A stretch of 64,000 nt of DNA, taken from contig DIPH01000051.1 of NCBI GenBank assembly GCA_002424045.1, forward strand, positions 65,858 to 129,857, in the 5' to 3' direction. This DNA comes from Firmicutes bacterium UBA5493 (GTDB lineage: Bacteria; Bacillota; Limnochordia; Darwinibacteriales; Darwinibacteriaceae). A program made the position numbers and the translations under genes. Shown one piece after another: positions 36,383-58,263 of this stretch. The notes beneath the pieces were generated by a model. That model saw nothing but the letters and a program-made list of their open reading frames with translations. It had not been told where the DNA came from and did not search any database. How positions within the stretch are numbered: the stretch's first letter is position 1; each line of letters begins with the position of its first letter.

Positions 36383-36397
36383 CGAAGAATTAGGCAA

Positions 36398-36432
36398 CCC
36401 CTGCCTCAGTGACTACTGTAGCAGGGGTTTTC
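36398..36432 (+). terminator. Rho-independent terminator of ahpC
   Basis: cccctgc ... gcagggg stem followed by tttt. Confidence 0.6.
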
Positions 36433-36651
36433 GTATCTCCTGTTGCAATAACGATGTATGGAAATCTCCAGGATGATAATGGCATCGATACAAATAGCAA
36501 CGTGATCGGACATATCTTATATGAGCAGGTAGCCAATAGGGGGACCAGCGCATTTTACGGCATCTTGTTCCGTGCCCAATTCCTTCGTACCGTAAAAAAC
36601 ACCCCGGAGCTCCCTGGATATTAACCCAAGGGAACTCAGGGGGATTATCAG

Positions 36652-36777: not shown

Positions 36778-36866
36778 TTATACACCCTCCCAACCAAGTC
36801 ATCAACCGGTGGAAGTGTCAAAACGTGAAGGTGGTCACAAATCCACGCCAACGCCTGGCCTCGGGA

Positions 36867-37505
36867 TTAAGTCTGCTCAAAAAAAGCCTCCTCAAGCATG
36901 GCGCAAAGCGTATGATACATCGCCTGATGACATTCTTGAATACGGTACGTCTCCTGGTGGGGAGCCCTAATCGTCACATCACATAAATCAGCCATTTGAC
37001 CGCCACTAGAACCTGTAAAACCGATAGTCACAAGCCCCCGCAGTGTCGCTACCTGAATTGCGTTAATCACATTCTTGGAGTTTCCACTTGTACTTAAAGC
37101 GATTAACACATCTCCTGGCACTCCGTATCCATAGACCTGCTGGGCGTATACCGTGTCAAAAGTCACATCATTGCCAAATGCGGTCACCAGTCCTGTGTGG
37201 CTAGACAAAGATATGGTTGGTAACGCTCCCTGTAAATGTGATGCCAAATAACGGCCGTGATCGCCAAAAGCTTCCACCGCTTGTTTGAAAAATGCCCCAC
37301 CTAAGGGGCGTTCAAGCAAAAAGCCCTTCATCAGCTCACCAACAATATGCTCGCTATCAGCGGCACTGCCACCATTTCCGCAGACTAGAGTCTTGTACCC
37401 TGAGGCGAATGACTCCCTCCACAATTGAAAAGCCTCTTCCAAGTCGGCGACACAAGCCTCTAGTTCGGGACAGCGGCTAATCATCAGTTCCAGATGTTTG
37501 TTCAT
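36867..37505 (-). CDS. gmhA: SIS-domain sugar-phosphate isomerase, phosphoheptose isomerase (GmhA/DiaA)-like
   Basis: CGNGGSAADSEHIVGELM ... LSTSGNSKNVI matches GmhA. Confidence 0.75.
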   Translation of the reverse strand: MNKHLELMISRCPELEACVADLEEAFQLWRESFASGYKTLVCGNGGSAADSEHIVGELMKGFLLERPLGGAFFKQAVEAFGDHGRYLASHLQGALPTISLSSHTGLVTAFGNDVTFDTVYAQQVYGYGVPGDVLIALSTSGNSKNVINAIQVATLRGLVTIGFTGSSGGQMADLCDVTIRAPHQETYRIQECHQAMYHTLCAMLEEAFFEQT

Positions 37506-37566
37506 GTCCGTTCCTCCAAGTTTCTAATCGCCCTTCACTCTGCATCAACTGCCAAATGCCCTTTCT

Positions 37567-38580
37567 TTAGTAACCACTTTTCCACTCATCATAACGCTCC
37601 AAAACGTCTTGAGGGCTCGCTGCACCTGTTGTACCAAGCTGAGTAATGGTGACCGAAGAGACCAGATTACCCATAAAGGCAGCATCTTGATAACTTGCTC
37701 CAGCAGCCAGTGCAACAACAGTTCCGGCACTAGCACTGTCGCCAGCGCCTACAATATCAATGGGTCCTTGCAAAGCAGGCACATGCAAAGCCTGATCCCC
37801 ATCGTATACCCACTGCCCCTTCTCACCACAGGTCATAAATACCGGTTTACCCGTCTTGCAGAAAAGAGCCTTTACAGCCTGCTCGGGCTCATCTGCAGCT
37901 GATCCCACTCCCAAGACCTTCCCAGCTTCAAACTCATTAGGCTTAATTATAACTTGGGAAAATTGGTCGATGTGCTTTCTGGAGTCCACAGAAATAATCA
38001 GGTCAGGATGCTCCCGGCCCAGCTCTGTAAGAGCGGCTCGCACATTTTTGGTGACTACTCCGCAATCTGCTTCCTCAACTTGGTCTACCACAACAATGGC
38101 ATCACAATTAGGCCCTCTATTCTCTAGAATGTCAAGAAGTTGTGCTTCGAGCTTTGCAGGGGTTGGTGTCCAGTTCTTAAGATCAAGGCGGTCTAGTTCC
38201 TCTTCCTGGCCATCCTTTCCCCGCATAGGCTTAATATACGTAGGTGTAATTCTGGCTAAGCTCACCAACATATTTGTGGTATCCACGCCTTGGGCGTTCA
38301 AGGATTCTTTGAGTTGATACCCATAACCATCAGAACCAAGCAAACCTACGGCCAAGATTTCTTGTACGCCTAAAGTCGAAAGGTTGTTGGCAACATTACC
38401 AGCGGCCCCAGGTGTTGCCCTGATCCTGGTTACTTGGTGAGCAGCCTTTCCCGTTTCGATAGACCGTTCTTCCTTAGATGGATCAATGAATAGGTAGTGA
38501 TCGAGAAAGAAGTCGCCGATAACCATGATCTTCAATTTGGCTGCCCGATGCAAAATACGTTCTAGAACTCCGCGTTTCAT
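37567..38580 (-). CDS. PfkB-family carbohydrate kinase resembling the kinase domain of RfaE/HldE (heptose-7-phosphate kinase-like)
   Basis: ribokinase-like fold with the C-terminal GAGDSASAG motif. The overall pattern resembles HldE domain I (…MVIGDFFLDHY…). Confidence 0.7.
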   Translation of the reverse strand: MKRGVLERILHRAAKLKIMVIGDFFLDHYLFIDPSKEERSIETGKAAHQVTRIRATPGAAGNVANNLSTLGVQEILAVGLLGSDGYGYQLKESLNAQGVDTTNMLVSLARITPTYIKPMRGKDGQEEELDRLDLKNWTPTPAKLEAQLLDILENRGPNCDAIVVVDQVEEADCGVVTKNVRAALTELGREHPDLIISVDSRKHIDQFSQVIIKPNEFEAGKVLGVGSAADEPEQAVKALFCKTGKPVFMTCGEKGQWVYDGDQALHVPALQGPIDIVGAGDSASAGTVVALAAGASYQDAAFMGNLVSSVTITQLGTTGAASPQDVLERYDEWKSGY

Positions 38581-38592
38581 GCTATCACCCCA

Positions 38593-39555
38593 TCACTTCG
38601 TTAGTTTGGACCACAAGCTTGAGACCGTTCGTTGGTGATCGCCCTCAATATAGAAGCTGGTACCTCCATCACGCACGGTTCGCACCAAAATCGTCTTCCA
38701 AAAACGATGATAATACTCCGGCCGATCCTTTGCTGGCTCTATGTGATAATCTCTGGAACGAATGGGCTGGATATCCAAGACCGAAGTGGTAAAATTAGAG
38801 ATTGCACTTCCTTCCTGGTGAGCGACATTACGGGCCATCGACAAAGCCTTTAGATACACCTCTGGACCCATAACGGCTGTTCCAACATTGAGAAGCACCC
38901 CACCCTCTAAATTGCGAACACTTTCGGCGAGAATTAGAAAATCCGTGTGACTGCCATGCCCAAAACTGGCTCCATCGAAATTCGGGTGTTCGTGAATGAT
39001 GTCTTGTCCGATGGAGACATGAACCGTAACAGGTACCTTGAGGCGATAACCTGACGCTAAGATGCTAACATCCTTATGGGGATAGTCTCCCTCAAAGATC
39101 GCTTTGCCTAGTGTTTCACCAATCCCATACCCTTTGTGGGCACCCTCTTTAACCAGATCATTGATCTGGCCCGTTTCCTTCCAGAGGCCAAACTGCCCTT
39201 CACTGATGTAACGGGGTACACTCTCTGTGGTTGCACCGATTAAAGCTAACTCATAATCGTGAATTGCGCAAGCCCCATTCAGTCCCACGTGAGTAATAAA
39301 ACCTCTTTCCATCAAGTCGATGATAAAGCGGCTCATTCCGGTCTTGATTACATGCGCACCCATCATCAAAATTACCGCGGCTCCATCGTTTCTTGCCCTA
39401 ACGACCCTCGAGACCAGCTCATCTAGCTCTGGTTCTTCCATTTCCTGCACACAATTCAGTTGTTTTACATCCTCAAGCGTCATATCATGCTCGCGTTCAT
39501 TAAGAGGTTTAAGCTTCAGCTTTGTTAAGTCAAACCGAGGATACATCGAGATCAA
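38593..39555 (-). CDS. Conserved hypothetical protein (320 aa); possibly deoxyhypusine-synthase-like fold
   Basis: Clean ORF in the middle of the sugar operon. AVILMMGAHVIKTGMSRFIIDLMERGFITHVGLNGA resembles DHS-family proteins only loosely. Confidence 0.45.
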   Translation of the reverse strand: MISMYPRFDLTKLKLKPLNEREHDMTLEDVKQLNCVQEMEEPELDELVSRVVRARNDGAAVILMMGAHVIKTGMSRFIIDLMERGFITHVGLNGACAIHDYELALIGATTESVPRYISEGQFGLWKETGQINDLVKEGAHKGYGIGETLGKAIFEGDYPHKDVSILASGYRLKVPVTVHVSIGQDIIHEHPNFDGASFGHGSHTDFLILAESVRNLEGGVLLNVGTAVMGPEVYLKALSMARNVAHQEGSAISNFTTSVLDIQPIRSRDYHIEPAKDRPEYYHRFWKTILVRTVRDGGTSFYIEGDHQRTVSSLWSKLTK

Positions 39556-40363
39556 CTCCTTCCGTCAATCCAAGAAACAGGGCTTCTTGGCATCTATAGT
39601 CTCCGATTATTACGTCCGCACCAGCTTTGATCAATCTCGAGCGTTTCCAACGGTCAATACCCCTGCGCTCCTTCTCCCTAGACGCCACCCCTACAGCAAT
39701 TCCACCTACGACCTTCACATTTTCAATTTCCACATAGCCATCACCAAAGCCCAACAGAGCTTCAGCGGTCTGTATTCTAGGAAGGATAAGCTCCTTAATC
39801 ACCTTCTCTTTGGAAAACATTTTATAATCGTCCAAAGCCCCATAAATACCGCCATTAAAATAGTCGCTAACCCCTAAAGCAGCGGCCTCTTCCTGCACAT
39901 ATTCATGATCCGTTCCGCTCGCCAAATACAAGTCCAATCCTTGGCTACGTAAATAATCTAGTAGCTCCAGACTACCAGGAACCAAATACTGTTCTGGTTC
40001 AACTTTTCCTGTCTTCAATCCCCAGACCCGATCCTCGATATGGAGCAGTAACCTCCGGCTATACTCAGCTTTGTACACAGAAGGGTCTTCTGGTCTTCCG
40101 CCCCTTCTTCTTATTTCATCGGCCAAATACATGCACTGATAGATGGTTTGTTTACCAGTGAGTAAATCCACAAACTCACGCACGCATTGGCCAATCTCTT
40201 CCTGTGACTGCCCCTGAGATACCTCAGTTAATACCTCAGCAAAGTAGGAATACATGATGGGCTGCCACCCCTCACGTATCAAAGAGATGGTTCCGTCAAA
40301 ATCAAATAGGACTGCCTGAAAATTCCTTTGCACGTCTTCATTAATCCATTCGATATGCCCCAT
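39530..40363 (-). CDS. HAD-superfamily hydrolase (probable sugar-phosphate phosphatase)
   Basis: Motif I VLFDFDGT, plus motifs III/IV (GFGDGYVE). 277 aa with a cap domain. Confidence 0.75.
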   Translation of the reverse strand: MGHIEWINEDVQRNFQAVLFDFDGTISLIREGWQPIMYSYFAEVLTEVSQGQSQEEIGQCVREFVDLLTGKQTIYQCMYLADEIRRRGGRPEDPSVYKAEYSRRLLLHIEDRVWGLKTGKVEPEQYLVPGSLELLDYLRSQGLDLYLASGTDHEYVQEEAAALGVSDYFNGGIYGALDDYKMFSKEKVIKELILPRIQTAEALLGFGDGYVEIENVKVVGGIAVGVASREKERRGIDRWKRSRLIKAGADVIIGDYRCQEALFLGLTEGVDLDVSSV

Positions 40364-40471
40364 TAACTTGCTCCTTAGAAAAGATAGTCTTTGTAACCGG
40401 TATGTTTAATAGAAAGCGATCGCCAGAAGACCTCACCTGCGGAAAGGTGAGATCTTCTGGGTTAGTCCATC

Positions 40472-43400
40472 CTATTTGAACCTGACCTTGAAGGTTTTGA
40501 TTTGGTAAGGTTTAATAGTGAACTCGAAGGAGTTATCAGTAACTAGATCCAATGTCCGCTCAGTCTCTTCCATCAGATTTGTTTCCCATACTTGTTGTAT
40601 TGACTTGAAGAGATCTACACGCACCGTTTCCCTGGAGTTGCCATATTCATAGAAACGCAAGATCAGACTGTCATCATCCTCTGCGCGTTTTACCGTTTCC
40701 AGCATGGTGGATTGACCAGTAGCAGTGATGAAGGACTGGTGGCTTGGCAGCTCGCCTTCTGAGCTTGTTGCAATCACTGCTTTTAGAGGACAATTTAGGT
40801 TATAAGCCTCTTGTGCAGTCCCGCCTGTCAACCAATCCCCTGGATGAGGATACAAGCTATATGTGAAGGAATGGTGCCCCTGATCTTGGTTAGGGTCAGG
40901 ATACACACCGGACTTAAGCAGTGTAAGGCTTAAGGTATTGCCCTTCACATCATAGCCGTACTTGCAGTCGTTGAGCAAACTGACCCCATAGCTCCGTTCA
41001 GACAAGTCGGCCCACTTTTGGGCTGCAGTTTCGAACTTCGCATAATCCCAAGTTGTATTGTCATGTGTGGGTCTTTCCACGTTACCAAACTGGATCTCAT
41101 AGGTTGCCTTAGTGGCTCTTAAATCTACCGGAAACGCCGCCTTCAACAAAATCTGGTTTTGATGCCAATCCACCTCGGTTTTGAAGTCTACCCGACGTTT
41201 GTCAGCATAAATGACCATGCGCTGTTCAATTGTGGAATCAAGAAAGTTCCACCTTAAGGTGAGTACTCCACGGTCAGGTCCCGCTTCTTCCACCGAAATT
41301 TCTTCTAAATCATCGACAATATACTCTTTGTCTTTGTAATAAACATCGATATCCCAAGCGCTGTAATTCATGGGGCGATCCTCAAAGGCGCGGATAACGT
41401 TGGCCTTAGCACCGTCAGGAACCAACTCGCGATCAGTTTCTTTATCATACCAAGAGATAATGTGACCGTTTTGATCTAGTTTGATCTGGTAGAATCGGTT
41501 CTCCACATAGTCTTTCCTTACTATAAGCTCATCTTCAAAGGAATGGTCTTCTGTAGCACCATCAACCATGCGAAACGCCTTATAGCCTAGTGCTGGTATT
41601 TCCTGTACGCGCACCAAGAGTTCCTTCTCGTTCTTACCCACTACCTTAGTTGGGAGTAGGTCGCCTCCAGAGTTCATAAAGCACTTCTTCGCCAGCTCCT
41701 CCGTCCATGGCAAGGAGACAAAGCCATCCCGCTCCCAAGGCAAAGAGTTGAACACCACTAGGTTCTCCCCATGTATCGTAATGTTCTCTGCAATTGTTGT
41801 TAGCCCCTTGTTTAGGGTATCTCTTCCAGTCTCGATAATTTCGGCAAATTGCTCCTCGCTATCCTCGTAGACCTCACCAATGGAAGAACCGGGTAATATG
41901 TCATGGAATTGATTTAGCAGAATCGTTTTCCAACCTGAATCAATCACGTCTTTCGGATACTTGTGAATGGGTTGCACCAAGCTGGCCACTGAGTTAAACA
42001 ATTCAACATCATGATAAAGAAATTCGCTTACCCTGTTATTCTTCTTCACCTTACCCTGGGACGTGTAGGTACCGCGGTGGAACTCTAAGTAAAGCTCGCC
42101 ATCCCACACTGGAAGATCAGGATTGGATTCCACTCTTTCTTCAAGTCCTGCAAAGAACTCCTCTGCTTCTGTGAACTTTACATCTGGTAGCACAGGCAAT
42201 TCAGCTATAATCTTAGCTGTCTCAATCATCCCTTCAGTGGGTCCACCCCCACCATCACCCCAGCCATAGGCCAAGAGGAGTTCGTCATTAATGTCTTTTT
42301 GCCGATAATTATCCCAAATTCCCTGTACGCTCTTGGGATCAACGACGGCGTTATACGCATAGAATGCGCGTCCAAGGTATTCTGGAGTCGTAATGAAATG
42401 CGTTAAGACCTCTGTGCCATCCATACCTTTCCACAAGAAGGTGTCGTGTTCAGGCCGGTTGAACTGACTCCAGCTAATTTTTGTGGTCATAAAATACTTT
42501 AAGCCACTACGTTTAATAATCTGAGGCAACGCCCAAGAGTAACCAAAAACATCAGGCAACCAAAGAACAGTGCATATCTTGCCGAACTCCTCCTTGATAA
42601 AGCGAGTTCCGTATAAAAATTGTCGAACCAAAGACTCACCAGAAGGTATGTTACAATCTGCCTCGACCCACATTCCCCCCGTTACTTCCCACTGACCCGC
42701 TTGCACACGTTTCTTAATCTGCTCGTAAATCTCCGGATTGTCCTCTTTAATGAACTCATATAGTTGGGGCTGAGTCTGAATGTACTTAAACTCGGGATAA
42801 CGATCCATCAAGTTAAGCATCGTGGTAAATGTACGTTCCACCTTCTCCCTGGTATGCCGCAATCTCCACAACCAGGCCACATCAATATGCGAGTGACCAA
42901 CTAGATGCACCATCGGTTTATTCTCAATTGCTGGTTTGTATTCGCTGAGGCGCGTCTTTAGAGAGCAATTGGCTTTCTTTACGGAGGCATAGAACTCTTC
43001 GCTTCTAGGAACCCGAAAGTCAATCATATTGATTGCTTCGTCTAGAAACTGGAGCAAATTATTCCGATCATAGACATGTTCCTTGATGTTCTGAATCGCC
43101 TCAAAGGTTACAGAGGCTCTCAAATAAAACTCCTCTGCCTCTGGGTTAACCAGGCATAAACGAGCCACCTCGAAGCAGCGCTTCTCGTCCTGCAAACCGC
43201 TGAAGGCCTTGATGAGAAACTCGACCCTGCCGCCGCCATACATTTCGGGTTCTAACCTTACCTGAGTATGATTCATGTCTAGAGCTTGAACAGGCTTGCC
43301 ACTGATCAAGAGCAGGCCTTCAGCACCCTTTGTTGCAAACAAATCGCCGTCACCCATGTTCAGTTCCAAGACCAGGGAATCACCAATCCATGCTGTAGGT

Positions 43401-43594: not shown

Positions 43595-44534
43595 GCGCTC
43601 GCCTCCTTGTCATTTTTCCTAAAAACTCTTCCACTTCTTGCTCCGTTGGCAACGAGGGAATTGCCCCCTGCCTAGTCACGGTAAGAGCTCCTACTGCATT
43701 GGCATACTGAACCGCTTCCTCAAGGGGAAAACCGCAGGAAACTTGGGTTGCCAAAGCACCATTAAAGGCATCTCCTGCCGCCACCGTATCTACTGGCTGA
43801 ACCGAAAACCCATCAACATGGATAAACGAATCTCCAGAAGCAAGCAGAGCACCTTTCTCGCCCAAGGTGATAATCACGTTCTTTGGTCCCCTATCCAAAA
43901 GGACTGCCGCAGCCCTCTTCGCCGATTGCAGATCACGAACGGGAACCCCAGTTAACAGTTCTGCCTCTGTCTCGTTGGGCGTCAAGTAGGTTACAGTCGC
44001 CAAAAGATCATCCTCAAGCTCACGGGCTGGTGCGGGATTGAGAACCACAGGGACGCCGTGTTTGCTGCCCATTTTCACAGCCTCTTTCACCGTTTCAATG
44101 TCCATCTCTAGCTGTAGCATCAAGAGGTCGTGGGACGCCATAACAGGTTCTAAAGTAGCCAAGTCAGCTAGATTGAACCTGAGGTTGGCACCTGGCACTA
44201 CTACGATCCTGTTGTCTCCCCCATCGTCGAGAGTAATGGAACCTATACCAGTAGAAGCGCTAGCATCACGTAATACATGTCCCACAGAGATACCTTCTTC
44301 TTCTAAGGCAACCAACATTTCGTCGCCGAAGAAATCTTTGCCGAGCTTGCCCGCCATAGTGACGGAAGCTCCTAAACGTGCTGCGGCCACTGCCTGGTTA
44401 GCTCCTTTACCCCCAAGAAACCGGTTGAAGCTGCTCCCAATCACTGTCTCTCCGCTCTTGGGTGCCCGAGGCGTTCTTACCACTAAATCAATCATGAAGC
44501 TACCAATGACCATAATGCGCGGTTTTTTTACCAT
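43587..44534 (-). CDS. Ribokinase-family (PfkB) sugar kinase
   Basis: GGKGANQAVAAARLGA and DTVAAGDAFNGAL motifs. It overlaps the mannosidase gene by 8 bp. Confidence 0.85.
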   Translation of the reverse strand: MVKKPRIMVIGSFMIDLVVRTPRAPKSGETVIGSSFNRFLGGKGANQAVAAARLGASVTMAGKLGKDFFGDEMLVALEEEGISVGHVLRDASASTGIGSITLDDGGDNRIVVVPGANLRFNLADLATLEPVMASHDLLMLQLEMDIETVKEAVKMGSKHGVPVVLNPAPARELEDDLLATVTYLTPNETEAELLTGVPVRDLQSAKRAAAVLLDRGPKNVIITLGEKGALLASGDSFIHVDGFSVQPVDTVAAGDAFNGALATQVSCGFPLEEAVQYANAVGALTVTRQGAIPSLPTEQEVEEFLGKMTRRRAHA

Positions 44535-44539
44535 AGCCG

Positions 44540-45145
44540 TTACCTCCCCTCATCTTTCAATGCGGAAAGTTGCTCTCCGAGGCTTCCACCAGGATGATAA
44601 CGGTGAAAGTCGCTATCCTCAAATCCGCCCAGCATGGAGAGGGTCACCGCCAAAGCATCCCCAAGCACTAGGGTCATGACCGCGCTAGTTGTGGGAGCTA
44701 GATTAAGGTGGTCTGACTCTCGACTATATGTGTAAACCAAAGCTATATCAGTCAGTTGAGCCAAGGTCGACTCAGCTTTTCCTGTAATGGCTATTTTGCT
44801 ACACCCAATCTTCTTGAGAATGGGCAACACGCTGAGTACTTCTTTGGTTTCACCGCTATTGGAGATAAGTATAACCACGTCTCCGTTTTCAATCATTCCT
44901 GAATCTCCATGTACAGCCTCGCAGGCATGAACAAAGAAAGCTGGAGTACCTGTACTGGCCAGTGAAGCTGCAATCTTGCGCCCAATAATGCCCGACTTTC
45001 CGACTCCCGAGACAACAACCTTGCCTTTGCACTTTCGAATTAGATCTACAGCCTTCACAAAGCTCTGATCAAGTTGATCAACTAAACTAGTGATGGCATC
45101 TGCTTCGATTTTGATAGCATTCTTAGCAAACCCCAATACATTCAT
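44540..45145 (-). CDS. SIS-domain sugar-phosphate isomerase (KpsF/GutQ N-terminal-domain type, no CBS pair)
   Basis: GKVVVSGVGKSGIIGRKIAASLASTGTPAFFVHACEAVHGD closely matches the SIS domain of arabinose-5-phosphate isomerases. Confidence 0.8.
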   Translation of the reverse strand: MNVLGFAKNAIKIEADAITSLVDQLDQSFVKAVDLIRKCKGKVVVSGVGKSGIIGRKIAASLASTGTPAFFVHACEAVHGDSGMIENGDVVILISNSGETKEVLSVLPILKKIGCSKIAITGKAESTLAQLTDIALVYTYSRESDHLNLAPTTSAVMTLVLGDALAVTLSMLGGFEDSDFHRYHPGGSLGEQLSALKDEGR

Positions 45146-45259
45146 TTTACGATCACCCTTTGAGAGAGAAATAAAGAAGCAGAGCGAGGCACCAGTCCAT
45201 CACACTCTGCTCCGTTAACATTTTGTCAAGTGCAACTGCTCTGGCCCGAAATGGACTGT

Positions 45260-46087
45260 TTAGCCTTTCACAGCACCTTCTGTGAGGCCCATGATAATAT
45301 ACCTTTGGGCGAAGGCAAACACCAACATTGTTGGTAGCAAGGCTACGACAATACCTGCACTGAGCACTCCCCAATTCACTCCAGCTTTGGAGATAAAGGA
45401 ATTGAGTGCAACGGGCACAGTCATGTTATGGTTGGAACTCAACAGCATAACCGCCAAGAACAACTCGTTCCAAATATTCACAAAAGCGAAACTAAAGATG
45501 GCTGCTAAACCAGGCAGAGTCAGAGGCAACACGACTTTGACAATCGTCTGGGTACGAGTACATCCATCAGTCATTGCCACTTCCTCTAGAGCTACGGGAA
45601 TACGGTCAAAGAAGCTCTTGGCCATAATTGTGGAGAAAGCTATCATCATGGATACGTAGACAAAAGTGATGGCAATGAGACTGTCTGTCATGCCTATTTT
45701 CGCTAGAGAAATAAAGAGCGGGCTCATCAACATATACGTAGGGATGATTTGGGTAAAGTACATGCCCAAAAGCAAAATCAGTTTAGGTCTTCTGCTCCTG
45801 ATTCGCGATAGGGCATAACCGCTAAATACAGAGATTAGTAACGCACCTGCGGATGCCAATAAGGAGATAAGCAAACTGTTCTTAAAGTAGATGGAGAAAT
45901 CGCTGATTCGAAAGAGATATTTGTAGTTCTCAAACGTCACCTCAGATGGCCAGTACCGAATGGGAAAAGTGTAAATCTCCTGACCTCCTTTGAGGGAGGT
46001 TACAATTACCCAATAAAGAGGTCCCAAGGCCACTACTAAAAACAAACCAAGCAAGAGCACTTTCAGAGTACGCAGAAGTAGCTTCAA
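45260..46087 (-). CDS. ABC transporter permease (MalG-like, sugar)
   Basis: A TTG start at 46087 overlaps the upstream stop (TTGA) and is preceded by GGAGGAG. EAA loop MTDGCTRTQTIVKVVLP. The ORF-track N-terminal extension is implausible. Confidence 0.8.
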   Translation of the reverse strand: MKLLLRTLKVLLLGLFLVVALGPLYWVIVTSLKGGQEIYTFPIRYWPSEVTFENYKYLFRISDFSIYFKNSLLISLLASAGALLISVFSGYALSRIRSRRPKLILLLGMYFTQIIPTYMLMSPLFISLAKIGMTDSLIAITFVYVSMMIAFSTIMAKSFFDRIPVALEEVAMTDGCTRTQTIVKVVLPLTLPGLAAIFSFAFVNIWNELFLAVMLLSSNHNMTVPVALNSFISKAGVNWGVLSAGIVVALLPTMLVFAFAQRYIIMGLTEGAVKG

Positions 46088-46971
46088 AACGTCTCCTCCT
46101 TCCCAGAGGTCAGGCGCAGATAAAGGAGAGCATACGTGAACAAAAGAACCATGATCACTACACCGAAAGCAGAACCCTGGCCGTAGTCGTAAAATTTCAG
46201 GATCTTGTTGATCATCTGCGTGGCCAAAATGTTCGTACTGTTGCTGGGTCCTCCTCCGGTCATGGCGTAGATAATATCGGGGAAGTTCATAATCCACATG
46301 GTCCTTAGCAATGTTGTGCTAATAATCGTAGGTTTAATGTATGGAATGGTAATACTAAATAGCCTGCGAAGTGGACCTGCTCCGTCAATTTTACCTGCTT
46401 CCATCAGCTCAGCAGGGACAGACTGCAGGGCAGCGAGGAGCATAATGGCAAAAAACGGTACACCATACCAGATGTTCGCCACAATCACTGAAGCCATAGC
46501 GTAGCTGGGGTTGGAAAGAAACCCAACAGGATTGCTAATTAGACCCAGGCGCAGAAGAATATCATTAACCAGGCCAAACTGTCCGTTGAAAATCCAGGCC
46601 CAAACCAACCCGATGGCAAAACCAGACAAGGCCCAAGGATAGAAGACTAGGGACGAGTAGATTCCCCTGCCCCGAAAAGGTTTCTGCATAAGCAAGGCCA
46701 AAATAAACCCCAGCACGAACTGGAGGGCCAAGGAGACGCAAACCCAAATCAACGTATTGAGCATGATTTGACCAAAGTTGAAGTTGATATCCGTGAAAAT
46801 TGCTTTGAAGTTGTCAAAACCTATGAACGGAGTATTAGTCATGTCAAAAAGCGTGTACTTCTGAAAAGCTATAACCGTGCCTTGAATAATGGGATAATAC
46901 AGAAAGAGAGTAAGCAGAACGAAAGCCGGTATCATGATTAGAAAAAAGTAGCGCGCACTCTGTTCGCGCAT
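46084..46971 (-). CDS. ABC transporter permease (MalF-like, sugar)
   Basis: Six TM helices. EAA loop MEAGKIDGAGPLRRLFSITIP. Confidence 0.85.
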   Translation of the reverse strand: MREQSARYFFLIMIPAFVLLTLFLYYPIIQGTVIAFQKYTLFDMTNTPFIGFDNFKAIFTDINFNFGQIMLNTLIWVCVSLALQFVLGFILALLMQKPFRGRGIYSSLVFYPWALSGFAIGLVWAWIFNGQFGLVNDILLRLGLISNPVGFLSNPSYAMASVIVANIWYGVPFFAIMLLAALQSVPAELMEAGKIDGAGPLRRLFSITIPYIKPTIISTTLLRTMWIMNFPDIIYAMTGGGPSNSTNILATQMINKILKFYDYGQGSAFGVVIMVLLFTYALLYLRLTSGKEETF

Positions 46972-47050
46972 ATCATCACCTCTTTAGTAGCAGCAGTTAT
47001 CGTAAAAGTGCCGGGTGGCACCTACTGTGCCACCCTGTCTTAATGAGTGA

Positions 47051-48304
47051 TTACTTCGTCCAGTAATCGGTCCATTTCTGGAGCATTTGATCAAGCGTCA
47101 TCCTGCCAAGGAGAACACTTTGTACGTCGGTTTCGTAAACGACATCCCATCCGGGCCATTTTGCGGACGCCAAAGGATAGGTCTTCAGCAAGAATGTGTC
47201 AGGGTTAGCCATTTCATAGCGATATGCCTGATAATGCTTGCCTTGGAAGTGTTCATTGATGTCGAACGTTGTTCTGTGAACTGGCAGTGGACCCCAATGT
47301 TCATTGAAATAGCCATTCTTCTCAGCACTGGAAATCCATTGGATGAAATTCCATGCTTCCTCTTTGTGCTTGGAGTAACTTGGAATACCCATACCGCAGA
47401 AGCCGTAGTCAATCAGAGTAAAGTCGTGGGGACCTACAGGTAAGGGAACAACTTCGTACTTATCCTCGCCAAGCAAGTTGTTAATCAGTGGAATGGCGTC
47501 TGGATCTTGAATCAAGAAAGGAGTTGTTCCTGAAACAAAACCATTTACCTGCTCATTGAAGCCCCAGTTAATTCCGTCTGGAGGTGTGCCTTCTTTAAAG
47601 AGAGTTATATAAGCTTCCATACCCTGTTTGAATCCGGGGTCTAAGAAAAAGGTCTCATCTTCAGAATAGATGAATTCGCTGTTAGCAACGTCATCAACAC
47701 ATACTGAGGCAAACAAGTCACCAAACTTCATCGTAGCGCCCTTACCTCTCCAGGCAAAACCATACTGGTTCTTGGAAGGATCGGTAATCTGGCGGCAAAT
47801 TTCAATGAGCTCCTCTACCGTTTCGGGCATTTCGGTAATACCGTATTCAGCCAGGACGTCGGTTCTTGCATAGAGTGCTTTAATGAAAATCGCCTGAGGA
47901 ACCAAGTAGGGCGTATCATCCACAGTCTTAGCAGCTGCAATCGCCACAGGAGTCAGAGTCTCAGCCTCAGACCAAGCTTCATAATAAGGCGTCAAGTCGG
48001 TAAGCTTCTTGTTATTCACAAACTGCTTAACCGTATAGTCTCGGATTTCGATAATGTCCAGATCTTGGTTTGTATTAAGCATCAACGTTGCTTTTTGGTC
48101 TGCCTGCTCATAAGGTGGCGAAATGAGGTTGATCTTAATGCTAGGATTCATGGCCTCATATTCTGCAATCAAGTCCCTGAGTAAAGCAGTTCTTTCTGGA
48201 CTAGTCATAACCTCAAGGAAATTCAAAGTAATTGTGTTAGCTGATACCGTAGCGCTAACCAAGAGTGTTAATACAACCAACATTAGAAGACTTCGTTTCA
48301 ACAT
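47051..48304 (-). CDS. ABC transporter substrate-binding protein, family 1 (carbohydrate)
   Basis: Signal peptide MLKRSLLMLVVLTLLVSATVSA. RBS AAGGAGG. Confidence 0.85.
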   Translation of the reverse strand: MLKRSLLMLVVLTLLVSATVSANTITLNFLEVMTSPERTALLRDLIAEYEAMNPSIKINLISPPYEQADQKATLMLNTNQDLDIIEIRDYTVKQFVNNKKLTDLTPYYEAWSEAETLTPVAIAAAKTVDDTPYLVPQAIFIKALYARTDVLAEYGITEMPETVEELIEICRQITDPSKNQYGFAWRGKGATMKFGDLFASVCVDDVANSEFIYSEDETFFLDPGFKQGMEAYITLFKEGTPPDGINWGFNEQVNGFVSGTTPFLIQDPDAIPLINNLLGEDKYEVVPLPVGPHDFTLIDYGFCGMGIPSYSKHKEEAWNFIQWISSAEKNGYFNEHWGPLPVHRTTFDINEHFQGKHYQAYRYEMANPDTFLLKTYPLASAKWPGWDVVYETDVQSVLLGRMTLDQMLQKWTDYWTK

Positions 48305-48415
48305 AGTGTACCTCCTTAGTATTAAGCGTGTGTGTTTTCTTAACTTCCTGGATGAGCTAACACGTTACCCCCTTTCCCAAACTTCTTGTTTACCAGACAT
48401 TTCTCGCAACCAGCC

Positions 48416-49513
48416 CTAAACAAACCCGTAAATTCTACGTCTGTTGTCAGGATCATGTGGCTGAATATCTGGCAGTGGTAGTCGATCTTGCACGCAAGGA
48501 AGCTTGCGGAAAGACCGGTGTGGTTCTGTTTGGTACCAATATGCAGTACTGGAATAATCGTCACTGCGGTGATTGTTGTGTCCATGTTCAATCGTGACTC
48601 GAATGGACTTATTAAACATGATTGGATCTTCTATATGATAACGATACATGGAAATTTTACCCGACCAATTGGGCCCTCCCCCTAGAATAATCCCATGATA
48701 AGGAGTACAAATCTCTTGAGTGGGACACCACGCCGTATTAAAATAGTCTTCCATGCCCGTTCCATGCAAACTTGGCGGCCAAGGTTCTCCGTCAATAAAG
48801 ATCATGTCGTCCCCTTCACCATACCAATTCCACTTGTCAGTAAAACGCCGATTATGAATATTCAGGTTGCAGCCCACATAGTGGCCGGCTCCCACTGCAT
48901 CCAAAATCACATAATTACCATCTCCAGTTACGTTAGAGCCACCAAAGGAGAAATCCTCGTTGGAAATATTGGTATCATCAACGCCATCGGTTAAGCGCTC
49001 AGAATTCCATTGAGCATGAAAACGAAGCTCATCGCCGTTTAACTCGTCATACTCTTCGTAGTCCACATAAAAATACACTCGAACAGCACTCTCTGTCTCG
49101 TTTTCTACCTCCAAACGAGCCTGAGATGCAAAGGGCATGGGGAAGTAACAATTGAACGATTTCCCGTCCTCTGGACTCATCATTAAAACTGCAGAAGTAT
49201 AATTCCTCGTCATTCCATGACCTAAACCAAAAAAGTCACCTAAAGGAACTTCCACACTGGGGTCTTCCTCACCATCCCAGTACATGCGGAGCACAAGTTT
49301 GCGTGGCAAGTACAGTTCATCTTTGTTCAGTGAGGCTGTAGTCATCCAAATGTGAGTTATCTTCCCGCATCCCTGGAGATCAGCTATTACTCGATTCTCC
49401 CCAGGCTCAAGCATGTAAAAATCCTTATTTCCGCCAGAGCGGTCAAAACTAGAAACACGTTTTCGTCGTCCAGGTCGCCTAAGGCTCAACTCGCGCAATG
49501 AACTTCCCAGCAA
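48416..49513 (-). CDS. DUF2961-family protein (the family now classified as glycoside hydrolase GH172)
   Basis: A 365-aa cytoplasmic protein with the jelly-roll-like DUF2961 pattern (…SSFDRSGGNKDF…, W/Y-rich). Family assignment is from memory. TTG start 10 nt after AAGGAGG. Confidence 0.6.
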   Translation of the reverse strand: MLGSSLRELSLRRPGRRKRVSSFDRSGGNKDFYMLEPGENRVIADLQGCGKITHIWMTTASLNKDELYLPRKLVLRMYWDGEEDPSVEVPLGDFFGLGHGMTRNYTSAVLMMSPEDGKSFNCYFPMPFASQARLEVENETESAVRVYFYVDYEEYDELNGDELRFHAQWNSERLTDGVDDTNISNEDFSFGGSNVTGDGNYVILDAVGAGHYVGCNLNIHNRRFTDKWNWYGEGDDMIFIDGEPWPPSLHGTGMEDYFNTAWCPTQEICTPYHGIILGGGPNWSGKISMYRYHIEDPIMFNKSIRVTIEHGHNNHRSDDYSSTAYWYQTEPHRSFRKLPCVQDRLPLPDIQPHDPDNRRRIYGFV

Positions 49514-49666
49514 TTTTCATCTTCCTCCTTAAGAAATGTCAAACACGTTTTGAATTTTATAATCAGAAGGATCCCCTGTACGTGCCATTGTAAACGATTA
49601 CAAATGCATCAAAATAAAAAGGGGCTTTCTTTTGATCCACCAACAACCCTATTAACAGCTTAACAT

Positions 49667-49695
49667 AATTGTATAGCCTGTGTGTCTTTTTGTCA
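49667..49695 (-). promoter_or_regulatory. Consensus sigma-A promoter (TTGACA-17-TACAAT) reading into the DUF2961/sugar operon
   Basis: Minus strand: gTTGACAaaaagacacacaggctaTACAATtat. Confidence 0.55.
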
Positions 49696-49789
49696 ACTTC
49701 GTGTATTTGGATGATAGTGGCAACCCACAGTAGGGTCGAAGAAGAATCCCTGGTATTCTATGGCGAGCAAAAGTGTGCTTTTTGGAACT

Positions 49790-58250: not shown

Positions 58251-58263
58251 CTGTTTTCCCTCC

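What the first reader, a model, noticed from the sequence alone, without database searches (positions are those of the whole stretch)
36867..49513. Large glycan-catabolic locus combining GH38 alpha-mannosidase, a DUF2961/GH172-type hydrolase, two SIS-isomerase + PfkB-kinase pairs, a HAD phosphatase and an unknown 320-aa enzyme
All thirteen genes are on one strand with short or overlapping junctions. A consensus promoter sits at 49667-49695. The combination of a heptose-pathway-like trio (GmhA-like isomerase, HldE-kinase-like PfkB, HAD phosphatase), a second KpsF-type SIS isomerase and ribokinase, and two different glycosidases does not match a textbook mannose, fructan or heptose pathway. It may process an unusual mannoside or fructoside or heptose-containing oligosaccharide via phosphorylated ketose intermediates.
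Basis: partly seen in the sequence, partly recalled or inferred. Interest (0 to 1): 0.65.

Follow-up and report, generated by a model that had tools for sequence, protein, structure and literature searches.

The report
Two-module D-arabinose/mannose sugar-scavenging operon
An 11-gene bacterial operon that most likely imports and digests small sugar chains made of D-arabinose and mannose (the kind found in mycobacteria-type cell envelopes), sends D-arabinose into metabolism by a kinase-plus-isomerase route to which no genes have been assigned, and carries at its end a very widespread four-gene cassette whose central enzyme has no known function.

Summary
The locus is real, with 11 genes rather than 13, and every family call was confirmed by profile search. 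It is two modules, not one pathway.

**Module A (49513-40472):** GH172, a CUT1 ABC importer, a single-SIS arabinose-5-phosphate-isomerase-like protein, a ribokinase-like kinase and an Ams1-type GH38. It recurs as the same 7-gene operon in a relative that lacks the rest. Relatives of this GH172 sit mainly in D-arabinan loci (GH183, GH116). There, either FucI+FGGY or this kinase/isomerase pair is present, never both. I infer this sequence:
- Import of alpha-D-Araf/alpha-Man oligosaccharides.
- Cytoplasmic hydrolysis.
- D-arabinose -> arabinose-5-P -> ribulose-5-P.

**Module B (40363-36867):** HAD, GSU2086-family protein, HldE-like kinase and GmhA-like isomerase. This cassette is conserved across at least seven phyla. 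GSU2086 occurs fused to each enzyme type of the ADP-heptose pathway. It has a deoxyhypusine-synthase/LOR-SDH (dinucleotide, hydride-transfer) fold. Its reaction is unknown.

I rate it a new variant of a known kind, interest about 0.6.

The parts
49668..49696 (-). Sigma-70-type promoter, TTGACA-17-TACAAT
   Evidence: It is the best match (11 of 12) in the scanned stretch 35800-50400. An equivalent TTGACA-17-TATAAT lies upstream of the orthologous operon in L174.
49589..49602 (.). Palindromic cre/LacI-type operator, TGTAATCGTTTACA
   Evidence: It is the only match to TGWAANCGNTNWCA in the 64-kb window (0.15 expected). TGTAAACGTTTACA is conserved at the same position in L174 while the flanks diverge.
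48416..49513 (-). GH172 (DUF2961), cytoplasmic; inferred exo-alpha-D-arabinofuranosidase
   Evidence: Pfam gives 292 bits. PDB matches are 4kq7 at 290, DgGH172 8ah3 at 270 and alphaFFase1 7v1v at 262 bits. W230/E233/E255/D256/W262 reproduce the alphaFFase1 pattern W267/E270/E291/D292/W298; this was matched by motif and spacing, not by a printed alignment. Relatives at 52-69% identity sit with GH183, GH116, FucI and FGGY.
47051..48304 (-). CUT1 ABC solute-binding protein with a signal peptide
   Evidence: SBP_bac_1 and SBP_bac_8. It is 77% identical and syntenic in L174.
46084..46971 (-). ABC permease 1
   Evidence: BPD_transp_1, MalF/UgpA-like. 83% identical in L174.
45260..46090 (-). ABC permease 2; probable GTG start at 46090, although the ORF is open to 46297
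   Evidence: BPD_transp_1, MalG-like. 87% identical in L174.
44540..45145 (-). Single-SIS arabinose-5-phosphate isomerase-like protein, no CBS domains
   Evidence: GutQ 216 and KdsD 213 bits over the SIS half; TIGR00393 gives 201.8 against a cut-off of 203.7. The best PDB match is the 198-aa phosphosugar isomerase 5uqi, then the API 2xhz. It ends in HPGGSLG. It lies next to GH172 in L088, L092 and L174.
43587..44534 (-). Ribokinase-family kinase; inferred D-arabinose 5-kinase
   Evidence: TIGR02152 gives 355 bits. Its motif is GSFMIDLVVR, so the Asn14 of E. coli RbsK is Met. The same change is seen in the GH172-linked copies in L088, L091 and L174. In the GH172 loci it is mutually exclusive with FucI/FGGY.
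40472..43594 (-). GH38 alpha-mannosidase, Ams1/cytosolic type, no signal peptide
   Evidence: Four GH38 Pfam domains. 537 bits to the yeast Ams1 structure. It is the last gene of the 7-gene operon in L174.
40423..40460 (-). 16-bp perfect hairpin at the module junction, with no U-run
   Evidence: dG -27.8 kcal/mol, z -4.6, and 0 of 200 shuffles fold as well. In L174 a GC-rich inverted repeat followed by a T-run, read by eye as a terminator, lies after GH38 at the same place.
39530..40363 (-). HAD-superfamily hydrolase, 277 aa, DFDGT motif, uncharacterised subfamily
   Evidence: Pfam Hydrolase/HAD_2. No NCBIfam match reaches its cut-off and there is no PDB relative. About 50% identical copies flank GSU2086 in 52 of 80 loci.
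38593..39555 (-). GSU2086-family protein, function unknown
   Evidence: NF052581 gives 389 bits. There are more than 8000 homologues, 55-65% identical across phyla. The AF2 model has pLDDT 78.7. Foldseek matches LOR/SDH 3c2q, the AgrE/ArgZ ornithine cyclodeaminase domain and deoxyhypusine synthase. Fusions are listed.
37567..38580 (-). PfkB kinase related to the HldE kinase domain
   Evidence: rfaE_dom_I gives 147 bits against a cut-off of 345. The PDB heptose-7-P kinase 4e84 scores 59 bits. It flanks GSU2086 in 51 of 80 loci.
36867..37505 (-). SIS_2 isomerase related to GmhA
   Evidence: Phosphoheptose isomerase models give 156 and 148 bits against cut-offs of 276 and 209. It carries the GNGGS...STSGNS...RIQECH motifs.
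36594..36642 (-). Intrinsic terminator: hairpin plus UGUUUUUU
   Evidence: dG -31.2 kcal/mol, z -3.6.

Best explanation
The locus is one transcription unit built from two independently evolving modules.

**Module A: GH172, SBP, two permeases, single-SIS isomerase, ribokinase-like kinase, GH38.** This module scavenges small oligosaccharides that carry alpha-D-arabinofuranose and alpha-mannose, such as fragments of actinobacterial arabinomannan or lipoarabinomannan. The proposed steps are:
1. The CUT1 ABC system imports the oligosaccharides. Its ATPase is encoded elsewhere.
2. The cytoplasmic GH172 removes alpha-D-Araf.
3. The Ams1-type GH38 removes alpha-Man.
4. The ribokinase-like enzyme phosphorylates D-arabinofuranose at O5.
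5. The KdsD-like SIS enzyme isomerises D-arabinose-5-P to D-ribulose-5-P, which enters the pentose-phosphate pathway.

Expression starts at the consensus promoter. It is gated by a cre/LacI-type operator.

**Module B: HAD, GSU2086, HldE-like kinase, GmhA-like isomerase.** This is a separate, widely conserved cassette that landed downstream of module A. It interconverts a manno-configured sugar phosphate, either heptose or hexose. The proposed chemistry is phosphorylation, a dinucleotide-dependent hydride-transfer step by GSU2086 (epimerisation or redox), a HAD phosphatase or mutase step, and aldose-ketose isomerisation.

**Shown:** gene content, family membership, synteny, co-occurrence, fusions and fold.

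**Inferred:** every substrate and every reaction.
For: **Modularity**
- L174 carries GH172-SBP-Perm-Perm-SIS-PfkB-GH38 in the same order. Identities are 83/77/83/87/71/71/70%. Unrelated genes follow, and a hairpin with a T-run (read by eye as a terminator) lies after GH38.
- Relatives with 73-83% identical GSU2086 (L171-L173) carry the cassette with their own ABC importer. Each also has a ROK protein or an RpiR regulator. None has a glycosidase in the operon, although L173 has a separate LacI-ABC-GH2 unit just downstream.
- A perfect 16-bp hairpin marks the junction in the window.

**GH172**
- The catalytic pattern of alphaFFase1 is kept.
- Among 84 loci of this clade, co-located genes were: GH183 endo-D-arabinanase 12, GH116 5, DUF6259 9, FucI-like 12, FGGY 9, ribokinase-like 5.
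- Examples are L087, L088 and L089.

**Kinase and isomerase**
- The pair lies next to GH172 in Gracilibacillus (56% and 60% identity), L092 and L174.
- L128 has the kinase together with GH183 and GH116.
- No locus has both this kinase and FucI/FGGY.
- The GH172-linked kinases share N14M at a ribose-ligand position.
- The isomerase matches the catalytic half of KdsD/GutQ and single-SIS APIs.

**Regulation**
- The promoter and the unique operator are conserved in L174.

**Module B**
- HAD flanks GSU2086 in 52 of 80 loci and the kinase in 51 of 80.
- GSU2086 is found fused to HAD, SIS_2, an HldE-I-like kinase, an HldE-II-like adenylyltransferase and a DUF89 phosphatase.
- In Geobacter and Solidesulfovibrio the order is hldE-GSU2086-gmhA/SIS.
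- The fold matches NAD- or NPAD-using ornithine cyclodeaminase and deoxyhypusine synthase.
Against: - No enzyme was assayed.
- The window has no endo-arabinanase, endo-mannanase, GH116, regulator or mannose kinase. The source of the oligosaccharides and the fate of mannose are therefore open.
- The SBP is only about 25% identical to SBPs of D-arabinan loci. Its closest non-syntenic relative lies next to a GH4.
- GH172 alphaFFase1 also cleaves alpha-D-fructofuranosides, and the window enzyme scores nearly as well against it as against DgGH172.
- The kinase passes NCBI's ribokinase cut-off.
- The kinase/isomerase pair accompanies only a minority of GH172 loci, and many of those loci are short contigs.
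- For module B, GH38 is adjacent in only 2 lineages. Nothing fixes the substrate, the direction or the GSU2086 reaction.
- Conserved His/Asp motifs could mean a metal enzyme rather than an NAD enzyme.
Confidence: 0.55

Rival explanations
1. This is one integrated pathway. Module B is the downstream route for the manno-configured sugar released by GH38, either mannose or glycero-manno-heptose from alpha-linked heptosides. All 11 genes then serve a single substrate.
For: - The genes are co-oriented and I found no strong internal promoter.
- The junction hairpin lacks a U-run, so read-through is likely.
- GH38 directly precedes SIS_2-ROK-HAD-GSU2086-PfkB in an unrelated Chloroflexia MAG (L005, 47-bp gap). 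That is an independent second juxtaposition.
- GmhA- and HldE-type enzymes act on manno-configured rings (established knowledge).
Against: - L174 keeps module A intact without the cassette.
- Cassettes in close relatives have their own importers and no glycosidase.
- GH38 is adjacent in only 1 of 80 cassette loci besides the window.
- Mannose needs only a kinase and an isomerase. This leaves HAD and GSU2086 unexplained.
Confidence: 0.25
2. GH172 is an alpha-D-fructofuranosidase/DFA I hydrolase like B. dentium alphaFFase1. The PfkB enzyme is a fructokinase. The locus uses caramel-type or other fructofuranosides.
For: The window enzyme scores 262 bits to alphaFFase1 and shares its catalytic residues. 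PfkB enzymes include fructokinases.
Against: - The clade's neighbours are GH183, GH116, FucI-like and FGGY genes. Clustering all neighbouring ORFs gave no other recurrent glycosidase family.
- An A5P-isomerase-like gene has no role in fructose use.
- The kinase scores 355 bits on the ribokinase model and 93 on the fructokinase model.
- alphaFFase1 itself cleaves alpha-D-Araf (PMC8605356).
Confidence: 0.1
3. Module B is a biosynthetic heptose(-nucleotide)-type pathway for an envelope glycan. It merely lies downstream of a catabolic operon.
For: - It is homologous to GmhA and HldE.
- In Geobacter, GSU2086 lies between hldE and gmhA and has the same Tn-seq phenotype.
- On the Solidesulfovibrio plasmid the trio sits inside a glycan-biosynthesis cluster.
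- Fusions to an HldE-II-like adenylyltransferase exist.
Against: - There is no nucleotidyltransferase or glycosyltransferase in the window.
- A nucleotidyltransferase domain lies next to GSU2086 in only 1 of 80 loci.
- In Bacillota and Chloroflexota the cassette is embedded with ABC importers, and often with ROK kinases or RpiR regulators.
- I found no promoter of its own.
Confidence: 0.15
4. The kinase is a genuine ribokinase, and the SIS protein serves another role such as regulation or Kdo-like synthesis. Their position next to GH172 is then incidental.
For: The ribokinase equivalog model is passed. The physiological roles of single-SIS APIs are unsettled (recalled from the literature).
Against: - The adjacency recurs in four independent loci.
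- The kinase is mutually exclusive with FucI/FGGY.
- N14M sits at a sugar-binding position.
- The tblastn and Pfam checks of the window turned up no Kdo-pathway genes, but none was specifically searched for.
Confidence: 0.1

Closest known systems
D-arabinan degradation loci of Microbacterium arabinogalactanolyticum (Shimokawa 2023, PMC10509167) and Dysgonomonas gadei PUL42 (Al-Jourani 2023, PMC10115798)
   Same: A cytoplasmic GH172 exo-alpha-D-arabinofuranosidase is paired with an oligosaccharide importer. Dedicated genes take D-arabinose to ribulose-5-P.
   Different: - There is no GH183 endo-arabinanase and no GH116 here.
- A GH38 mannosidase is present instead.
- D-arabinose entry is by a ribokinase-like kinase plus an A5P isomerase-like SIS enzyme. 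The published loci use an isomerase (FucI-type) followed by a kinase.
D-arabinokinase (EC 2.7.1.54) / phosphoarabinoisomerase route described biochemically by Volk in Propionibacterium (recalled from memory; not in the searchable library)
   Same: The same two reactions: D-arabinose -> D-arabinose-5-P -> D-ribulose-5-P.
   Different: As far as I know, no gene has been assigned to the kinase. Two library searches aimed at this found no paper linking D-arabinan use to this route. Here the assignment is genomic only.
Single-SIS arabinose-5-phosphate isomerases (the 198-aa 5uqi 'phosphosugar isomerase', the 3etn 'putative phosphosugar isomerase involved in capsule formation', and the KdsD catalytic domain 2xhz)
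   Same: About 200 aa, a SIS domain without the CBS pair, and a C-terminal HPGG motif. The match to 5uqi is 179 bits.
   Different: The context is a glycoside-catabolic operon, not Kdo or capsule synthesis. The activity has not been measured.
Bifidobacterium dentium alphaFFase1 (GH172 founding member, PMC8605356)
   Same: Same family and same catalytic residues. alphaFFase1 also hydrolyses alpha-D-Araf.
   Different: The window enzyme's clade is associated with D-arabinan genes rather than with fructose genes.
[quoted passage not shown]
   Same: Module B has a GmhA-like isomerase, an HldE-kinase-like PfkB and a HAD enzyme. Its partner GSU2086 is fused elsewhere to every enzyme type of this pathway.
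   Different: - All scores are far below the equivalog cut-offs.
- There is no adenylyltransferase and no HldD.
- The HAD is 277 aa; GmhB is about 190 aa (recalled).
- GSU2086 is an extra enzyme with an unrelated fold.
- The context is uptake or catabolism.
Ams1 / MAN2C1-type cytosolic GH38 alpha-mannosidases
   Same: About 1040 aa, the same domain set including the Ams1-like N-terminus, no signal peptide, and 537 bits to the Ams1 structure.
   Different: This one is bacterial and co-operonic with GH172. Its linkage specificity is unknown.

Membership tests
GH172 (DUF2961) | Match to the family profile | tested here: met
   PF11175 gives 292 bits against a cut-off of 27. There are four PDB GH172 relatives.
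GH172 (DUF2961) | Catalytic acid/base and nucleophile Glu with the flanking Trp/Asp (alphaFFase1 W267, E270, E291, D292, W298) | tested here: met
   W230-x-x-E233 and E255-D256...W262 have the same spacing and are invariant in 12 relatives. The match was made by motif and spacing, not by a printed alignment.
GH172 (DUF2961) | Retaining alpha-D-arabinofuranosidase or alpha-D-fructofuranosidase activity | not testable with these tools
   This needs an enzyme assay.
D-arabinan utilisation locus | Endo-D-arabinanase (GH183/DUF4185) | tested here: not met
   tblastn finds no hit in the 64-kb window.
D-arabinan utilisation locus | Exo-beta-D-arabinofuranosidase (GH116 subfamily 4) | tested here: not met
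   No hit in the window.
D-arabinan utilisation locus | GH172 plus an oligosaccharide importer | tested here: met
D-arabinan utilisation locus | D-arabinose isomerase (FucI-type) plus a FGGY kinase | tested here: not met
   Both are absent. A ribokinase-like kinase plus a SIS isomerase is present instead.
Ribokinase (RbsK) | Score above the equivalog cut-off | tested here: met
   TIGR02152 gives 355 against 299.65. NF008353 gives 318 against 341, which is below cut-off.
Ribokinase (RbsK) | Ribose-binding residues of E. coli RbsK (N14, D16, K43, N46, E143, D255; the residue roles are recalled from the 1RKD literature) | tested here: not met
   N14 is Met. D16, K43, N46, E143 and D255 are conserved.
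KdsD/GutQ arabinose-5-phosphate isomerase | SIS catalytic domain with the C-terminal HPGG histidine motif | tested here: met
   It covers residues 5-195 of GutQ at 216 bits, and HPGGSLG is present.
KdsD/GutQ arabinose-5-phosphate isomerase | Tandem CBS domains and the full-length equivalog score | tested here: not met
   The protein is 201 aa with no CBS. Scores are 216 against 481 and 213 against 505. TIGR00393 gives 201.8 against 203.7.
GH38 | N-terminal catalytic, middle and C-terminal domains | tested here: met
   PF01074 gives 320, PF09261 91, PF07748 228 and PF17677 75 bits.
GmhA (sedoheptulose-7-P isomerase) | Equivalog score | tested here: not met
   156 against 276 and 148 against 209. 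The GmhA-like motifs are nevertheless present.
HldE/HldA heptose-7-P kinase | Equivalog-domain score | tested here: not met
   TIGR02198 gives 147 against 345.
HldE bifunctional | C-terminal adenylyltransferase domain | tested here: not met
   The protein is 337 aa and PfkB only. No nucleotidyltransferase is found anywhere in the window.
GSU2086 family (NF052581) | Score above the cut-off over the full length | tested here: met
   389.5 against 250, covering model positions 2-300 of 301.
Deoxyhypusine synthase / LOR-SDH ornithine cyclodeaminase | Sequence-level membership | tested here: not met
   Pfam ArgZ-like_C_2nd gives 26.2 against 27. NCBIfam E-values are 3e-4 or worse. A PDB profile search gives E 0.0015 over 66 residues only.
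Deoxyhypusine synthase / LOR-SDH ornithine cyclodeaminase | Shared fold | tested here: met
   Foldseek probability is 1.00 with TM about 0.5 to 3c2q, 6lrg, 6juy and 7cmc. The model pLDDT is 78.7.
Deoxyhypusine synthase / LOR-SDH ornithine cyclodeaminase | Bound NAD+/NPAD cofactor | not testable with these tools
   This needs protein purification and cofactor analysis.

The most novel reading that the evidence does not exclude
GSU2086 is an unrecognised fifth enzyme of heptose-phosphate metabolism. It would be a nucleotide-sugar-independent hydride-shuttling epimerase or oxidoreductase with a deoxyhypusine-synthase/LOR-SDH fold. One possibility is a C6 epimerase acting on glycero-manno-heptose phosphates, analogous to HldD.

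- In Geobacter- and Desulfovibrio-type operons (hldE-GSU2086-gmhA) it would serve biosynthesis.
- In the uptake-linked cassettes of Bacillota, Chloroflexota and related lineages it would run a 'reverse heptose pathway'. That pathway would salvage or catabolise heptose (or a related manno-sugar) from bacterial necromass, ending at sedoheptulose-7-P.

Together with module A, the operon would then be a dedicated scavenger of the rare sugars of other bacteria's envelopes: D-arabinose, mannose and heptose.
Probability: 0.2. Interest if true: 0.85.

Novelty: new variant of a known kind. Interest (0 to 1): 0.62.

Why it matters
**Module A.** D-arabinan and arabinomannan breakdown was only opened up in 2023, and so far only with the isomerase-then-kinase route. 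If module A works as proposed:
- It gives candidate genes for the D-arabinose 5-kinase step, an activity known biochemically but, to my knowledge, without an assigned gene.
- It gives a physiological role to the puzzling CBS-less arabinose-5-phosphate isomerases of Gram-positive bacteria.
- It shows that uncultured Bacillota scavenge mycobacteria-type envelope sugars with a GH172+GH38 pair.

**Module B.** It flags a very large family: about 2,770 clusters at 50% identity, in at least seven bacterial phyla and in DPANN archaea, typically 55-65% identical between phyla. Gene order and gene fusion tie this family to every enzyme type of the ADP-heptose pathway, yet it has no assigned reaction. 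ADP-heptose metabolites are innate-immune agonists and GmhA and HldE are antibiotic targets, so an overlooked pathway member would be worth testing directly.

Tried and rejected
- **Sequence searches against PDB.** The HAD search gave nothing. For GSU2086 the only hits were a 66-residue ArgZ/AgrE match and noise.
- **Rfam.** A scan of the locus found no riboswitch or leader RNA for the operon. The 5' UTR folds no better than shuffles, z -0.3.
- **Literature.** Searches for GSU2086, for GH38 with lipoarabinomannan, for a D-arabinokinase/A5P catabolic route, and for deoxyhypusine synthase with heptose found no characterisation of this gene set or of GSU2086.
- **Neighbour clustering around 76 GSU2086 loci.** Beyond HAD, PfkB, SIS_2 and ROK, it gave only Gfo/Idh/MocA and transporters, each in a minority of loci. 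Nothing fixed the substrate.
- **One 11-gene pathway.** I considered this as the main reading and set it aside because of L174 and L171-L173. It is kept as a rival.
- **Fructoside reading of GH172.** Rejected as the main reading on context.
- **NPN/Lar dependence of GSU2086.** No recurrent unexplained neighbour family turned up, but Lar genes were not specifically searched for. This is not excluded.
- **Horizontal transfer from composition.** GC is 0.44-0.48 in the locus and 0.44-0.51 in the rest of the window, so there is no signal. The flanking pseudogene fragments are the only sign of insertion.

Full report
**1. Observation**

The minus strand between 49513 and 36867 carries eleven ORFs, not thirteen. 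Junctions run from a 26-nt overlap to a 114-nt gap.

| Coordinates | Result |
|---|---|
| 48416-49513 | GH172/DUF2961, 292 bits |
| 47051-48304 | solute-binding protein |
| 46084-46971, about 45260-46090 | two permeases |
| 44540-45145 | 201-aa SIS protein matching only the catalytic half of KdsD/GutQ |
| 43587-44534 | PfkB kinase passing the ribokinase model TIGR02152 (355 vs 300) |
| 40472-43594 | four-domain GH38 |
| 39530-40363 | HAD hydrolase |
| 38593-39555 | the 'unknown 320 aa' protein, GSU2086 family (NF052581, 389 vs 250) |
| 37567-38580 | PfkB kinase, best match the HldE kinase domain (147 vs 345) |
| 36867-37505 | GmhA-like SIS_2 protein (156 vs 276) |

The promoter TTGACA-17-TACAAT at 49696-49668 is the best sigma-70 match in the 14.6-kb stretch scanned (11 of 12). 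The strong Shine-Dalgarno sequence and the TTG start of GH172 can be read directly from the sequence.

**2. The locus is two modules**

The decisive comparison is L174, a contig from a relative. It carries GH172-SBP-permease-permease-SIS-PfkB-GH38 in the same order. Identities are 83/77/83/87/71/71/70%. After GH38 comes a GC-rich inverted repeat followed by a T-run, which I read by eye as a terminator. Unrelated genes follow, and there is no HAD, GSU2086, kinase or SIS_2.

Conversely, the closest GSU2086 homologues outside the source organism are 73-83% identical (L171-L173). They sit with HAD, in L171 and L173 an HldE-like PfkB, and in L171 and L172 ROK-family proteins. Each has its own CUT1 ABC importer, an RpiR or ROK-type regulator nearby, and no glycosidase in the operon. 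L173 does have a separate LacI-ABC-GH2 unit just downstream.

In the window the seam between GH38 and HAD holds a perfect 16-bp hairpin at 40423-40460 (dG -27.8 kcal/mol, z -4.6) without a U-run. I found no promoter of 9 or more of 12 positions in that gap. Read-through from the upstream promoter is therefore likely but unproven.

The unit ends at an intrinsic terminator at 36594-36642.

Both flanks are gene wreckage:
- **Upstream:** a frameshifted N-terminal fragment of a P-type ATPase. It follows a sub-threshold Mn2+-riboswitch-like element and is cut off where the operon promoter begins.
- **Downstream:** the C-terminal tail of a methyl-accepting chemotaxis protein. In L171 an MCP gene follows the cassette.

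**3. Module A: the glycosidases**

*GH172.* The enzyme has no signal peptide. It keeps the alphaFFase1 catalytic pattern: W267/E270/E291/D292/W298 correspond to W230/E233/E255/D256/W262. I matched these by motif and spacing, and they are invariant in 12 relatives. Sequence alone cannot separate arabinofuranosidase from fructofuranosidase. Scores are 4kq7 290, DgGH172 270, alphaFFase1 262 and ExoMA1 139 bits. alphaFFase1 does both reactions (PMC8605356).

Context separates them. In three genomes with 65-69% identical relatives, the neighbours are as follows:
- Paenibacillus: LacI-FucI-FGGY-GH172-GH183-ABC-DUF6259-GH172.
- Clostridium swellfunianum: GH172-LacI-DUF6259-ABC-GH116-GH172.
- Gracilibacillus: PfkB-LacI-SIS-GH172-GH172-ABC.

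Across 84 loci of this clade, the recurrent neighbours were ABC transporter genes, LacI (14), GH183 (12), FucI-like (12), FGGY (9), DUF6259 (9), GH116 (5) and the ribokinase-like kinase (5). No other glycosidase family recurred. GH183 and GH116 are the endo-alpha and exo-beta D-arabinan enzymes of the 2023 papers (PMC10115798, PMC10509167). I therefore read the window enzyme as an exo-alpha-D-arabinofuranosidase.

*GH38.* It is of the Ams1/cytosolic type (537 bits to the yeast Ams1 structure) and also lacks a signal peptide. It should therefore trim imported oligosaccharides. GH172 is immediately followed by a GH38 in one further metagenomic locus (L105).

*Substrate.* A cytoplasmic alpha-D-Araf-ase plus an exo-alpha-mannosidase behind one importer fits oligosaccharides from arabinomannan or lipoarabinomannan-type glycans of Actinobacteria. 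These are mannan cores carrying D-Araf (background knowledge). This is an inference. The window has no endo-acting enzyme, so the cell would depend on fragments made by others or on enzymes encoded elsewhere.

**4. Module A: the D-arabinose route**

Published D-arabinan loci convert D-arabinose with an isomerase and then a kinase. Here, and in L174, L088 (Gracilibacillus; 56% and 60% identity) and L092, a ribokinase-family kinase and a single-SIS KdsD-like isomerase sit next to GH172 instead. L091, L128 and L141 have the kinase. In L128 it lies with GH183 and GH116. No locus in the sample has both this kinase and FucI/FGGY. That is the pattern expected for non-orthologous displacement.

The GH172-linked kinases with a complete N-terminus (window, L088, L091, L174) share GSFM[IM]DLVVR. 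The Asn14 of E. coli RbsK is Met in them. The three ribokinase structures whose alignments were printed have Asn there. The other ribose ligands and the catalytic Asp are kept. That Asn14 contacts ribose hydroxyls is recalled from the 1RKD literature and was not checked here.

The SIS protein's best solved relatives are a 198-aa phosphosugar isomerase (5uqi), the E. coli API catalytic domain (2xhz) and a putative capsule-related phosphosugar isomerase (3etn).

The simplest chemistry is:
1. Alpha-D-arabinofuranose is released by a retaining GH172.
2. O5 is phosphorylated to give D-arabinose-5-P.
3. D-arabinose-5-P is isomerised to D-ribulose-5-P.

These two reactions were described biochemically decades ago (D-arabinokinase, EC 2.7.1.54; recalled). 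Two library searches aimed at this found no paper tying them to genes or to D-arabinan use.

**5. Regulation**

The only match to the cre consensus TGWAANCGNTNWCA in 64 kb lies between the promoter and the start codon, at 49589-49602 (0.15 expected). L174 has TGTAAACGTTTACA at the same place and a TTGACA-17-TATAAT promoter, while the surrounding leader has diverged. This points to CcpA- or LacI-type repression, as expected for a catabolic operon. No regulator gene is in the window. LacI genes accompany 14 of the 84 GH172 loci.

**6. Module B**

*Distribution.* GSU2086 has more than 8000 homologues at 90% clustering and about 2770 clusters at 50%. Identity to the window protein is 55-65% in Chloroflexota, Armatimonadota, Planctomycetota, Acidobacteriota, Latescibacterota, other Bacillota and one archaeon.

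*Neighbours.* In 80 genome loci the same-strand neighbours are a specific HAD (52 loci, about 50% identity) and an HldE-like PfkB (51 loci, about 44%). Less often there is a GmhA-like SIS_2 (14 loci) or a ROK kinase (14 of 76 loci). GH38 appears only once.

*Gene fusions.* These independently link GSU2086 to HAD, to SIS_2, to an HldE-I-like kinase, to kinase+HAD, to an HldE-II-like adenylyltransferase, and to DUF89 phosphatase plus adenylyltransferase. The last fusion is an 826-aa protein seen on 10 or more contigs, including Woesearchaeota.

*Biosynthetic contexts.* In Geobacter the gene lies between hldE and gmhA and shares their Tn-seq phenotype. A Solidesulfovibrio plasmid has the same order inside a glycan-biosynthesis cluster.

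*Uptake contexts.* In Bacillota and Chloroflexota the cassette sits behind sugar ABC importers, including a CUT2 monosaccharide type.

*Fold.* An AlphaFold model (pLDDT 78.7) matches LOR/SDH, the AgrE/ArgZ ornithine-cyclodeaminase domain and deoxyhypusine synthase at TM about 0.5. All of these use a bound pyridine or nickel-pincer dinucleotide for hydride abstraction. Sequence similarity is limited to about 66 residues of the first Rossmann segment.

*Proposal.* I therefore propose that GSU2086 performs a hydride-transfer step (epimerisation or redox) on a phosphorylated manno-configured heptose or hexose. The kinase would supply the phosphate handle. HAD would remove or move a phosphate. The GmhA-like enzyme would connect to a ketose phosphate. 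Substrate, order and direction are not established.

**7. What is shown and what is inferred**

Shown:
- Gene content and boundaries.
- Family and fold assignments.
- Synteny of each module.
- Co-occurrence counts.
- Fusions.
- Promoter, operator, hairpin and terminator.

Inferred:
- D-Araf specificity of GH172.
- D-arabinose as the kinase substrate.
- A5P/Ru5P isomerase activity.
- Arabinomannan-type substrate.
- Co-transcription of module B.
- Everything about module B chemistry.

**8. Comparison and novelty**

Module A works like the 2023 D-arabinan loci but fails their membership test on three of five defining features: no GH183, no GH116 and no FucI/FGGY. It adds GH38 and a different D-arabinose entry route.

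Module B resembles the ADP-heptose pathway but fails all its equivalog thresholds. It lacks the adenylyltransferase and HldD, and it contains an extra enzyme of unrelated fold.

I rate the whole as a new variant of a known kind. The GSU2086 cassette is the part that could turn out to be new biochemistry.

**9. Limits**

- Many comparison loci are short metagenomic contigs, so absence counts are lower bounds.
- My neighbour detection used tblastn with a limited query set, plus ORF clustering.
- The 64-kb window cannot show whether manA, ROK kinases, endo-enzymes or the regulator lie elsewhere in the genome.

Noticed in passing
window 49740-50313: There is a frameshifted N-terminal fragment of a P-type cation ATPase at about 49740-50170. 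It is preceded by a sub-threshold Mn2+ (yybP-ykoY) riboswitch-like element at 50179-50313 (19.4 bits against a gathering score of 45, E 0.0037). The fragment ends where the operon promoter begins. This suggests the operon was inserted into a former Mn-riboswitch/ATPase unit.
   Followed up: partly
window 36650-36800: Between the last gene and the terminator lies the C-terminal tail of a methyl-accepting chemotaxis protein (...IEEQAASMQQVATSAQDFMDMSVKLRELVEYFKIS*) with no upstream body. In the relative L171 a complete MCPsignal gene follows the cassette. The fragment therefore probably travelled with module B.
   Followed up: partly
window 47051-48304: The solute-binding protein has a signal peptide (MLKRSLLMLVVLTLLVSATVSANT...) but no Cys in its first 40 residues. 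It is therefore not a classical Gram-positive lipoprotein SBP. This may point to a diderm-type Bacillota host.
   Followed up: no
L001 1080-2029 (GCA_036771695.1): In the MAG contig that otherwise matches the window at 97-100% identity, the ribokinase-like gene is called as two ORFs of 142 and 161 aa. This is either a frameshift or an assembly error there. The window copy is intact.
   Followed up: partly
P0288/P0511 and relatives: An 826-aa fusion of DUF89 damage-control phosphatase, HldE-II-like adenylyltransferase and GSU2086 is present on 10 or more independent contigs, some assigned to Woesearchaeota (DPANN archaea).
   Followed up: partly
P0241 (Neobacillus ginsengisoli, 679 aa): A protein with two tandem GSU2086 domains. 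NCBI names it 'GSU2086 family protein' and UniRef names it 'Deoxyhypusine synthase'.
   Followed up: no
L176 7462-15067 (Solidesulfovibrio carbinolicus plasmid pDCAR1): A 509-aa PfkB (HldE-like), GSU2086 and a SIS gene are followed by three radical SAM genes. They sit beside nonulosonic-acid (NeuB/PseF-type) genes, split transketolase genes and methyltransferases. This looks like a biosynthetic glycan cluster that could make a modified heptose.
   Followed up: no
L005 1029-13498 (Chloroflexia MAG): The GH38-SIS_2-ROK-HAD-GSU2086-PfkB run is flanked by a PFL-like glycyl-radical enzyme and several Gfo/Idh/MocA oxidoreductases. Gfo/Idh/MocA genes recur near the cassette in 11 of 76 loci and in the Chloroflexota plasmid L177.
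   Followed up: partly
L174 10942-10955: A second exact copy of the window's operator sequence (TGTAATCGTTTACA) lies about 1.8 kb downstream of the orthologous operon, near an ECF-transporter and PLP-enzyme gene pair. This suggests a shared regulator or CcpA regulon.
   Followed up: no
window 52159-52695 (+): A 178-aa ORF matches only the N-terminal third of an SBP_bac_1 protein. It is probably another gene fragment. It lies between the DUF4143 ATPase gene and a second CUT1 ABC operon at 52867-56187.
   Followed up: no
window 57507-63940: There is a minus-strand run of a GATase1-like protein, an M20 peptidase, an inosine-uridine nucleoside hydrolase and a BMP-type ABC transporter (two permeases and an ATPase). 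It is probably a nucleoside-scavenging operon and is unrelated to the finding.
   Followed up: no
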